Virus record (IMG/VR): IMGVR_UViG_3300036985_004624
Strand: one strand, 5' to 3'
DNA: 64,000 nt
Source of the DNA: a virus
Positions 46,646 through 47,081 of this stretch are shown here, piece after piece. Each line of letters begins with the position of its first letter. Position 1 is the stretch's first letter. The notes beneath the pieces are model-generated. The model had not been told where the DNA came from, made no database searches, and worked only from the letters and a program-made list of their open reading frames with translations. The translations under genes and the position numbers were made by a program.

Positions 46646-46698
46646 TGTTTAGCTAGGTAGAATGGATTCAAAGTCCACTAGTTATACTTAACTAAACA
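46646..46698 (-). ncRNA. long-stem RNA carrying Gln anticodon stem-loop
   Basis: TGTTTAGTTA/TAGCTAAACA stem enclosing TGGA-CTTTGAA-TCCA. Confidence 0.7.
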
Positions 46699-46703
46699 TA
46701 TAT

Positions 46704-46782
46704 TGGCTCCGTGTGAGGGAATCGAACCCACCTAGTCATTGATTAACAGTCAAGTCCTTGCACCTTGCTTGAATTTCACGGA
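46704..46782 (-). tRNA. tRNA-Asn(GTT)
   Basis: CTTGA-CTGTTAA-TCAAT. Confidence 0.85.
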
Positions 46783-46790
46783 ATAAATTT

Positions 46791-46865
46791 TGGTGCCCCA
46801 GGCAGGAATCGAACCCACACACCCTGATTACAAAACAGGACCTCTACCACTAAGGATACAAGGGC
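46791..46865 (-). tRNA. tRNA-Thr(TGT)
   Basis: CCTGT-TTTGTAA-TCAGG. Confidence 0.88.
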
Positions 46866-46875
46866 AATATTAAAA

Positions 46876-46931
46876 CAGACTACACATTTGGTTTCATTTA
46901 CAGTGAATTTTTAAATTGCTGTAGGTAGTCT
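46876..46931 (-). ncRNA. CAGCAA-scaffold RNA carrying Tyr anticodon stem-loop
   Basis: AGACTAC-CTA-CAGCAA..TTCA-CTGTAAA-TGAA..GTAGTCTG. Confidence 0.78.
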
Positions 46932-46938
46932 TTGAAAA

Positions 46939-47014
46939 TGGCGCCATAGACGGGAATCGGACCCGCCACGAACTGATAGACAGTCAGTTATCACCCCCAG
47001 GTGGACTCTATGGC
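46939..47014 (-). tRNA. tRNA-Asp(GTC)
   Basis: ACTGA-CTGTCTA-TCAGT. Confidence 0.85.
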
Positions 47015-47025
47015 ATAAATTAAAA

Positions 47026-47081
47026 CAGAATCCTTATTTTTACATTAAAAGTGTAATTTTTTTATTTGCTGAACGGATTCT
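47026..47081 (-). ncRNA. CAGCAA-scaffold RNA carrying Lys(TTT) anticodon stem-loop
   Basis: AGAATCC-GTT-CAGCAA..TTACA-CTTTTAA-TGTAA..GGATTCTG. Confidence 0.8.

What the first reader, a model, noticed from the sequence alone, without database searches (positions are those of the whole stretch)
46646..47081. Isolated anticodon stem-loops (Lys, Tyr, Gln, Trp) as candidate anticodon-nuclease decoys
Seen: canonical 7-nt anticodon loops on 4-5 bp stems with no D arm, T arm or CCA. Lys TTACA-CTTTTAA-TGTAA (47026 element), Tyr TTCA-CTGTAAA-TGAA (46876), Gln TGGA-CTTTGAA-TCCA (46646, on a different long stem), Trp TACA-CTCCAAA-TGTA (36733-36747). The Tyr mimic has A38, whereas both real phage tRNA-Tyr have CTGTAAC. 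Known: PrrC and PARIS AriB cut tRNA-Lys, and retron Ec78 PtuAB and colicin E5 target tRNA-Tyr. Inference: untranslatable decoys or inhibitors of host tRNases, or sponges for modification enzymes or synthetases.
Basis: partly seen in the sequence, partly recalled or inferred. Interest (0 to 1): 0.88.

Follow-up and report, generated by a model that had tools for sequence, protein, structure and literature searches.

The report
Anticodon-loop mimics on phage Y-like RNAs
Three of the four "stray anticodon hairpins" are the variable heads of small RNAs hidden between a giant phage's tRNA genes; these RNAs share a conserved handle, probably dock a Ro60-like protein, and often copy tRNA anticodon loops exactly, but a decoy role against host tRNA-cutting enzymes is untested.

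Summary
All four hairpins are present as described, on the minus strand with the tRNA genes. The bare pattern is common by chance (262 in the window against 209 expected). The Lys, Tyr and Trp stems are thermodynamically marginal.

They are not isolated. Lys, Tyr and Trp sit inside ~55-nt elements that share a handle: AA-AGA, a covarying stem, CAGCAA, then the stem, UCU-GU. I found 96 distinct elements in tRNA arrays of about 70 viral and metagenome loci, almost always on the tRNA strand. The handle gives full-length but sub-threshold matches to Rfam Dictyostelium Class I RNA.

In 17 loci a DUF2828 gene lies beside the handles, and its model matches Ro60. The window itself holds no such gene.

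About a third of short inserts carry canonical anticodon-type loops: 8 of 32 lineages have CU-NNN-AA against 0.12 expected, led by Lys(UUU). Close orthologs change the "anticodon".

The Gln hairpin is a separate conserved structure.

Best reading: Y-RNA-like partners of a Ro60-like protein with anticodon-arm mimic modules. The nuclease-decoy idea stays possible but unproven.

This scan has reported the same handle family before on other DNA.

The parts
47023..47084 (-). E1: handle RNA with a Lys(UUU)-type anticodon-arm mimic. Outer stem AGAATCC/GGATTCT; hairpin 47040-47056.
   Evidence: Sequence. Rfam RF01414 full-length match at 38.1 bits, E 1.1e-5 in the local search. Orthologs in L065 and L041 have changed outer and inner stems but the same loop.
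46873..46934 (-). E2: handle RNA with a Tyr(GUA)-type mimic. Outer stem AGACTAC/GTAGTCT; hairpin 46892-46908.
   Evidence: RF01414 30.5 bits. Orthologs in L066, L025 and L058 keep CTGTAAA. L028 has CTGAAAA and L294 has TTTGTTC.
36715..36771 (-). E3: handle RNA with a Trp(CCA)-type mimic. Outer stem AGAATAC/GTATTCT; hairpin 36732-36748.
   Evidence: RF01414 31.6 bits. Orthologs in L069 (9-nt loop) and L294 (different insert) do not keep the loop.
46646..46698 (-). Gln(UUG)-type hairpin. It is a separate element: about 19 pairs in three helices, a 7-nt loop CUUUGAA and no CAGCAA handle.
   Evidence: Fold z-score -3.2. Identical copy in L041. The L294 copy has 4 substitutions, all structure-preserving: G-C to A-U, G-U to G-C and U-G to U-A. 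The loop is kept.
42149..42210 (-). E4: handle RNA of the same family whose insert is a 7-bp hairpin with a 9-nt loop ACCAUUAUC. It is not anticodon-like.
   Evidence: RF01414 27.3 bits. Near-identical inserts in L057, L069, L223 and L294 sit on different outer stems.
42224..42305 (-). E5: handle RNA whose insert contains a T-arm-like hairpin.
   Evidence: Orthologs in L057, L294 and L298.
38876..38979 (-). E6: variant handle (AGGATG...CATCCT-GTTTT) with a long insert that contains a T-arm-like GGTTCGACTCC.
   Evidence: Sequence only.

Best explanation
E1, E2 and E3 are genes for small (~55-60 nt) non-coding RNAs co-transcribed with the phage tRNAs.

Each RNA has two parts:
- A conserved handle. 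The 5' AA-AGA and the 3' UCU-GU are closed by a 6-7 bp helix whose sequence covaries. A single-stranded (UUA)CAGCAA motif follows the 5' strand.
- A variable head, which in these three copies imitates a tRNA anticodon arm.

Shown here: the family, its covariation, its restriction to the tRNA strand of viral tRNA arrays, the enrichment of exact anticodon-type loops, and the frequent adjacency of handles to a DUF2828 gene whose model matches Ro60.

Inferred:
- The RNAs are released by the ordinary processing of the neighbouring tRNAs.
- The handle docks the Ro60-like ring, as Y RNA stems dock Ro60.
- The head acts like the effector module of a Y RNA. It offers an uncharged, untranslatable anticodon arm to a protein that reads anticodon loops. 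That protein could be a host anticodon nuclease, a modification enzyme or a synthetase, which would be tethered, titrated or blocked.

The Gln hairpin is a different conserved structured RNA with the same kind of loop and possibly a similar role.
For: - Family: 96 distinct elements. The motif occurs 86 times on the tRNA strand and 2 times opposite. 78 of 86 have a perfect 6-bp partner, against 31% by chance.
- Covariation: 4 variable outer-stem pairs show 4-6 pair types each, with 83 double-changed cells against 24 in shuffles.
- Elements occupy tRNA-sized slots, at a median of 12 nt before the next tRNA.
- No sigma-70 promoter or terminator match lies on them.
- Class I likeness: full-length RF01414 matches at 27-38 bits on 4 window elements and on about 9 of 10 further sub-threshold matches in six viral loci.
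- Anticodon likeness. The strict loops equal the loops of real tRNAs in the same arrays.
- Lys loop: kept on 5 inner stems and 6 outer stems in the viral set, with one more inner stem (GTAAT/ATTAC) in the metagenome set.
- Protein link: a DUF2828-type gene lies within the fetched stretch in 17 loci with genuine handles, and in none of about 260 chance-match loci. In the 12 tRNA-array loci it is on the same strand, with the nearest handle 72-3007 nt away.
- DUF2828 is present in 3 of 5 related contigs and in 0 of 14 control genomes.
- Its model's top 11 PDB matches are all Ro60/TROVE, best E 9e-9 and TM 0.56. The profile's best PDB sequence hits are Ro60.
- A minimal handle lies in the leader of that gene in L332.
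- The long-insert relative L043 (309-427) holds a closed-acceptor tRNA body that hits YrlA below threshold; a second weak YrlA hit in L052 lies outside any recognised handle.
Against: - No DUF2828 or TROVE gene lies in the 64-kb window. Among fragments of this clade only G001 has one. The partner is therefore inferred from a relative at about 78% nucleotide identity.
- The canonical TROVE model finds nothing.
- The E1-E3 hairpins are barely stable.
- Two thirds of insert lineages are not anticodon-like. Orthologs of E2 and E3 change the triplet, U33 or the loop length, so the identity of the 'anticodon' is weakly constrained outside the Lys type.
Confidence: 0.5

Rival explanations
1. One reading: free RNA decoys or competitive inhibitors of host anticodon nucleases (PrrC, PARIS AriB, retron PtuAB, colicin-like enzymes), acting without any protein partner.
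For: - The loops are exact copies of the Lys(UUU), Tyr, Trp and Gln loops.
- Lys(UUU), the classic nuclease target, is the commonest head: 4 lineages.
- The other heads (Tyr, Asn, Asp, Glu) overlap known nuclease targets (my own knowledge).
- The window encodes an RNA ligase.
- PMC12409363 itself raises competition by viral tRNAs as a possible way of inhibiting AriB.
Against: - The stems are AU-only and marginal.
- AriB cuts in the stem at 40/41 and depends on U39 and A41, which the mimics do not reproduce.
- Heads also include Trp, Phe and Cys, and many are not anticodon-like.
- Orthologs switch triplets.
- The conserved handle and its Ro60-like neighbour are left unexplained.
- No host or defence system is known for this phage.
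Confidence: 0.2
2. The head is not a functional mimic. The handle RNA works whatever it carries, and the anticodon-like loops reflect either descent from tRNA pieces by recombination within arrays or the general stability of U-turn (YUNR) loops.
For: - Inserts are highly diverse: 5- to 11-nt loops, T arms, whole or permuted tRNA bodies.
- E3 orthologs lose the loop, and E2 orthologs change the triplet.
- The stems are weak.
Against: - The Lys loop is kept unchanged while both stems and linkers change in several deep lineages.
- The E4 insert is near-identical in five phages on different outer stems, so inserts are under selection.
- The inner stems show no similarity to the real tRNA stems of the same phage.
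Confidence: 0.2
3. The loops are recognition loops for RNA-RNA kissing, as in antisense regulators, or they pair within the RNA itself. For example, the E2 loop CUGUA could pair with the handle's UACAG.
For: - The minimum-energy fold of E2 pairs the loop with the motif.
- L028 changes both sides together (CUUCAG with CUGAA).
- All G34-type loops begin with CUG, which is complementary to CAG.
Against: - L058 and L272 break the pairing.
- The Lys, Trp and Glu loops have no such complement.
- The hairpin stems covary.
Confidence: 0.07
4. They are armless but functional tRNAs, or intrinsic terminators or processing spacers.
For: - A 7-bp outer stem followed by G resembles an acceptor stem plus discriminator.
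- A U-rich tail follows the element.
- L027 has a cloverleaf-like member.
Against: - There is no CCA, whereas every real tRNA here encodes it.
- Real tRNA-Lys(UUU), Tyr and Trp genes exist.
- No terminator or promoter call lies on them.
- Spacers would not keep a 15-nt signature across about 70 loci.
Confidence: 0.03

Closest known systems
Class I RNAs of dictyostelid social amoebae (Rfam RF01414; Kjellin et al. 2021, PMC7919456)
   Same: - AAG start, and a 6-bp terminal helix that covaries while its first G is invariant.
- (CC)UUACAGCAA immediately after the 5' strand.
- CUGU end, a T run downstream, about 60 nt, and a variable middle.
- The curated model aligns end to end with the phage elements.
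   Different: - Scores of 27-38 bits lie below the curated 41.5.
- The spacer before CAGCAA is one base shorter, and motif positions 1-5 are variable.
- The elements sit in bacterial-type tRNA operons of phages, with no DUSE promoter.
- Their heads are often tRNA parts.
- The paper reports the class as unique to Dictyostelia.
- Homology and convergence cannot be told apart here.
Y RNAs bound by Ro60/Rsr, especially the tRNA-mimicking YrlA (RF02553; Chen et al. 2014, PMC4201824) and Yrl1/Yrl2 of Thermus phage phiLo (PMC12135203)
   Same: - A small RNA whose ends pair into a stem, plus a variable effector module that can mimic tRNA.
- Genes lie beside a Ro60-fold protein gene.
- Phage examples exist.
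   Different: - The handle has no CGAA or bulged Ro-binding helix.
- RF02553 does not match E1-E3, and matches only the tRNA-like body of one long-insert relative at about 40 bits against a cut-off of 69.
- The protein is DUF2828, not canonical TROVE.
- The heads here are bare anticodon arms rather than acceptor/T/D bodies.
- No partner gene lies in this window.
Phage-encoded tRNAs that bypass tRNA-cleaving defences (T5 tRNA-Lys/Thr/Asn against PARIS AriB, PMC12409363)
   Same: Both sit in a phage tRNA array, and both involve Lys(UUU) and other nuclease-target anticodons.
   Different: Those are complete, chargeable tRNAs that replace cut host tRNAs by being resistant. These RNAs cannot be charged or decode.
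T4 stable RNAs species 1 and 2 (rnaC, rnaD) in the T4 tRNA cluster
   Same: Small stable RNAs of unknown role, co-located with phage tRNA genes.
   Different: They have no handle motif and no sequence likeness.

Membership tests
Dictyostelid Class I RNA (RF01414) | Rfam curated gathering score of 41.5 bits | tested here: not met
   The best window element scores 38.1 bits; the others score 27-36.
Dictyostelid Class I RNA (RF01414) | AAG start, and a 6-bp covarying terminal stem whose invariant G pairs with the C of a 3' CUGU | tested here: met
   A3, A4, G5 and T51-C-T-G54 are invariant in 46 aligned elements. Covariation is shown.
Dictyostelid Class I RNA (RF01414) | 11-nt motif CCUUACAGCAA next to the 5' stem, with T3, C6, C9, A10 and A11 near-invariant | tested here: inconclusive
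   CAGCAA is invariant. The three bases before it vary (TTA in 13 of 66 elements), and the spacing is one base shorter.
Dictyostelid Class I RNA (RF01414) | DUSE promoter about 60 nt upstream; a dictyostelid nuclear gene | tested here: not met
   The elements lie 2-40 nt after one tRNA gene and about 12 nt before the next, in phage contigs that carry tmRNA and CCA-encoding tRNAs.
Y RNA / YrlA (Ro60 partner RNA) | Gene next to a Ro60-fold protein gene | tested here: inconclusive
   Met for the family: 17 loci, with the fold shown. Not met in this window. One related contig has the gene elsewhere.
Y RNA / YrlA (Ro60 partner RNA) | Conserved Ro-binding helix or CGAA motif; match to RF02553 | tested here: not met
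   There is no RF02553 match on E1-E3. Only the tRNA-like body of the long-insert relative L043 matches, below threshold.
Y RNA / YrlA (Ro60 partner RNA) | Physical binding to the Ro60-like ring | not testable with these tools
   No tool here predicts RNA-protein complexes, and no experiment was possible.
tRNA (including armless tRNAs) | 7-nt anticodon loop with U33 and a purine at position 37 | tested here: met
   The loops are CUUUUAA, CUGUAAA, CUCCAAA and CUUUGAA.
tRNA (including armless tRNAs) | D and T arms, a 3' CCA, and detection by tRNA models | tested here: not met
   Neither ARAGORN nor RF00005 calls them. The 3' side reads G-UUUU, while all real tRNAs in the array encode CCA.
Intrinsic terminator | GC-rich hairpin followed by a U tract | tested here: not met
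   No terminator call lies on E1-E3 or on the Gln hairpin. The T tract after the Gln hairpin is absent in L041.

The most novel reading that the evidence does not exclude
The anticodon-arm heads are exchangeable specificity modules of a phage Ro60-like ribonucleoprotein. The particle would bait, tether or block host enzymes that read particular anticodon loops, above all the tRNA-Lys(UUU)- and tRNA-Tyr-directed defence nucleases. A phage could then retarget its counter-defence simply by swapping three bases. The same handle in Dictyostelium Class I RNAs would mark those orphan RNAs as partners of a Ro60-like protein too.
Probability: 0.15. Interest if true: 0.9.

Novelty: new variant of a known kind. 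Interest (0 to 1): 0.66.

Why it matters
- If the heads are true anticodon-arm baits, phages would hold a compact, RNA-encoded and easily reprogrammed way to deal with proteins that read anticodons. This would differ from the known strategy of supplying resistant full tRNAs.
- The handle family appears to be in no RNA catalogue. It is widespread in large phages and travels with an unstudied Ro60-fold protein. It therefore offers a tractable bacterial-virus system for the long-open question of what Ro60/Y RNA particles and tRNA-mimicking Y RNAs do.
- The end-to-end likeness to Dictyostelium Class I RNAs suggests a concrete partner to test. Those RNAs are abundant, of unknown function, and published as unique to that group.
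- For annotation: such elements, and the atypical tRNAs around them, are missed by standard tRNA and Rfam pipelines.

Tried and rejected
- Sigma-70 promoter and terminator scan: nothing lies on the elements.
- T4 tRNA cluster: rnaC and rnaD lack the handle.
- BLAST of the region against cultured phages: only homing-endonuclease and tRNA hits, with no close relative. The large glycosyltransferase was a poor marker.
- Canonical TROVE model (PF05731) in five related contigs: no match.
- DUF2828 in three further fragments, 12-26% complete: no match, uninformative. Two metagenome records could not be searched.
- No whole genome is held for the window.
- Reading frames through the elements, the idea that E1 replaces a missing tRNA-Lys(UUU), and the idea of functional armless tRNAs were considered and dropped. 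A real tRNA-Lys(UUU) lies at 31021-31091.
- The 342-aa array ORF is a vWA protein, not a Ro60 ring.
- The protein atlas gave no information on whether dictyostelids have DUF2828.

Full report
**Setting**

The window comes from a large uncultured phage.
- About 35 tRNA genes lie on the minus strand between 34.7 and 47.8 kb, and a two-piece tmRNA lies at 15.9-16.3 kb.
- Homing endonucleases are interspersed among the tRNAs. Elsewhere there are auxiliary metabolic genes and an RNA ligase at 180-1208.
- No whole genome is held, and no cultured phage is close.

**The observation**

None is called by ARAGORN or by the Rfam tRNA model. Two cautions apply.
- The bare pattern (4 or more pairs around a YT-NNN-R-N loop) occurs 262 times in the window, against 209 +/- 14 in shuffles. 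On its own it means nothing.
- The Lys, Tyr and Trp stems are AU-rich and marginal: dG -0.1, +0.4 and +0.2 kcal/mol, with pair probabilities of 5-17% within the whole element. Real anticodon arms in this array average -2.4 kcal/mol, and the Gln hairpin is -3.4.

**They are not isolated**

The Lys, Tyr and Trp hairpins lie in paralogous ~55-nt elements that sit in tRNA-sized slots between tRNA genes. These are E1 47023-47084, E2 46873-46934 and E3 36715-36771. Each element has the same plan:
- AA-AGA, then four variable bases, three more bases and CAGCAA;
- an A/U-rich linker, the hairpin, and an A-rich linker;
- the complement of the four variable bases, then TCT-GTTT.

Three more members lie in the window. 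E4 (42149-42210) has a 9-nt loop. E5 (42224-42305) has a T-arm-like insert. E6 (38876-38979) is a variant.

**Census of the family**
- A pattern of the handle alone found 91 stretches in IMG/VR, about 45 of them inside tRNA arrays. One metagenome scan added 25 more array loci.
- In all there are 96 distinct elements, 67 of them with short inserts.
- The motif stands 86 times on the tRNA strand and twice on the other. 78 of 86 have a perfect 6-bp partner, against 31% by chance.
- The four variable stem pairs show 4-6 pair types each. That alignment was selected for pairing, so the percentage of cells paired is not evidence, but the compensatory changes are.
- The first 120 pattern matches in prokaryote genomes were all chance hits.
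- No promoter or terminator consensus falls on the elements.

**What the handle resembles**
- An E-value scan of Rfam placed E1, E3, E2 and E4 on RF01414, the Class I RNA of Dictyostelium. The matches are end to end, at 38.1, 31.6, 30.5 and 27.3 bits. All are below the curated 41.5.
- Ten further sub-threshold matches in six viral loci fall, apart from one, on elements I had defined independently.
- Kjellin et al. define the class by an AAG start, a 6-bp covarying stem with an invariant first G, the motif CCUUACAGCAA, a CUGU end and about 60 nt. They report it as unique to Dictyostelia. Their curated sequences show the same layout.
- The phage elements meet the RNA-level features, with a spacer one base shorter. 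They fail the score threshold and the promoter and host criteria. I therefore call this a striking resemblance, not membership.

**The protein link**

After I had found this resemblance, the scan's earlier notes showed that other agents had met the same handle in many phages and giant viruses. They had tied it to a Ro60-like DUF2828 protein. I tested that lead on my own data.
- The canonical TROVE model finds nothing in five related contigs.
- DUF2828 is found in three of those five contigs and in none of 14 control genomes.
- Among loci fetched by the RNA pattern alone, a DUF2828-type gene lies within the fetched stretch in 17 loci with genuine handles. It lies in none of about 260 chance-match loci.
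- In the 12 tRNA-array loci the gene is on the handles' strand, with the nearest handle 72-3007 nt away. In the loci I checked by coordinates it lies upstream of the array in some (L014, L076) and just downstream of a handle in others (L018, L270).
- A model of the protein from L332 has mean pLDDT 76. That contig shares about 78% nucleotide identity with the window over 1.2 kb. The model's eleven best PDB matches are all Ro60/TROVE, over the full length. The family profile's best PDB sequence hits are also Ro60.
- The leader of that gene holds a minimal handle.
- The window itself holds no such gene. For this phage the partner is therefore inferred.

**Are the heads really anticodon-like?**
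- I clustered the 67 short inserts into 32 lineages. Eleven representatives carry a hairpin with a YU-NNN-R-N loop, against 1.33 expected. Eight carry the strict CU-NNN-AA, against 0.12 expected. Neither count was reached in any of 3000 shuffles (a first pass is).
- The metagenome set, fetched independently of the insert, gave the same share: 8 of 21.
- The strict loops are Lys UUU (4 lineages), Tyr GUA (3), and one each of Trp, Phe, Glu, Asn, Asp and Cys. All of them occur as loops of real tRNAs in the same arrays, and most are the commonest form there.
- In the viral set the Lys loop is kept on five different inner stems and six outer stems. The metagenome set adds one more inner stem, GTAAT/ATTAC.
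- Against a strict identity: two thirds of the lineages carry other hairpins, T arms, or whole or permuted tRNA bodies. The E2 orthologs read GAA (L028), UUUGUUC (L294) or CAGUAAA (L057). The E3 orthologs lose the 7-nt loop.
- A real tRNA-Lys(UUU) lies at 31021-31091, so E1 does not replace a missing tRNA.

**The Gln hairpin**

The Gln hairpin (46646-46698) is a different element without the handle. It folds well, with z-score -3.2. It is identical in L041. In L294 it differs by four substitutions, all of which keep or improve pairing, and the loop is untouched.

**Mechanism**
- Most likely (about 0.5): these are Y-RNA-like partners of a Ro60-like ring. The handle is the docking module, and the head is an effector module that offers an uncharged anticodon arm to a protein that reads anticodon loops.
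- Known Ro60/Y RNA systems work by tethering and gating. A phage Ro60 with its Y-like RNAs binds host PNPase and attenuates it.
In its favour are the dominance of Lys(UUU), the phage RNA ligase, and a published suggestion that viral tRNAs may compete for AriB. Against it are the weak stems, the lack of AriB's stem determinants and the drifting triplets.
- No step of processing, binding or protection is shown.

**Verdict**

The "isolated decoy" framing needs replacing by "anticodon-arm heads on a conserved handle RNA family". The function is open. This scan has reported the same family before on other DNA.

Noticed in passing
window 47150-47240 (-): A tRNA-shaped RNA with G3-U70, A73 and CCA (alanine identity). 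Its anticodon arm is replaced by a circularly permuted handle (CATTCT-GTTA-AGAATG, then ACCGCAA). The handle therefore works with its ends closed as well.
   Followed up: partly
window 47092-47148 (-): A 54-nt mini tRNA-like RNA. It has the stem GGGACA/TGTCCC followed by G-CCA, and an internal hairpin AATTC-TGTAAA-GAATT with a Tyr-like 6-nt loop.
   Followed up: no
window 46940-47015, 46706-46780 and 31021-31091 (-): tRNA genes missed by one or both callers: tRNA-Asp(GUC), seen only as a weak tRNA-Sec match; an atypical tRNA-Asn(GUU)-like gene, called by neither tool; and a real tRNA-Lys(UUU), found only by Rfam.
   Followed up: partly
window 44155-45183 (-): A 342-aa ORF inside the tRNA array with a vWA/MIDAS N-domain (DHSGSM...T...DG) and a beta-rich C-domain. 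It has no Pfam family. It is 60-92% identical in relatives' arrays and has 1628 database homologs, some on contigs of up to 385 kb.
   Followed up: partly
window 180-1208 (-): RNA ligase (PF09414 with the PHA02142 OB-fold domain). This suggests the phage deals with RNA breaks.
   Followed up: no
L057 8466-8886 and 2136-2594: A related phage contig carries a full GOLLD RNA (196 bits) and a two-piece tmRNA near its tRNA array.
   Followed up: no
L332 (G001:C1:77401-80718), minus strand, just before the DUF2828 start codon: A minimal handle (AGAATTT-TAA-CAGCAA-9 nt-AAATTCT-G) sits in the 5' leader of the Ro60-like gene, directly before its Shine-Dalgarno sequence. This hints at autoregulation.
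   Followed up: no
window 46873-46934 (-); L028 768-828: The E2 loop CUGUA is complementary to the handle's UACAG. In L028 both sides change together (CUGAA with UUCAG), but L058 and L272 break the match.
   Followed up: partly
L043 309-427 (-); L014 8781-8917; L029 1994-2137: Handle RNAs whose insert is a whole tRNA body with the acceptor closed by a tetraloop (Thr UGU anticodon arm intact), or a 3'-half/5'-half permuted tRNA. L043 gives a sub-threshold YrlA match of 40 bits.
   Followed up: partly
window 42149-42210 (-) and orthologs in L057, L069, L223 and L294: The E4 insert (7-bp stem, loop ACCAUUAUC) is identical over its hairpin and 3' part in five phages, differing only in its first few bases, while the outer stem changes. 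It is a second, unexplained conserved head.
   Followed up: no
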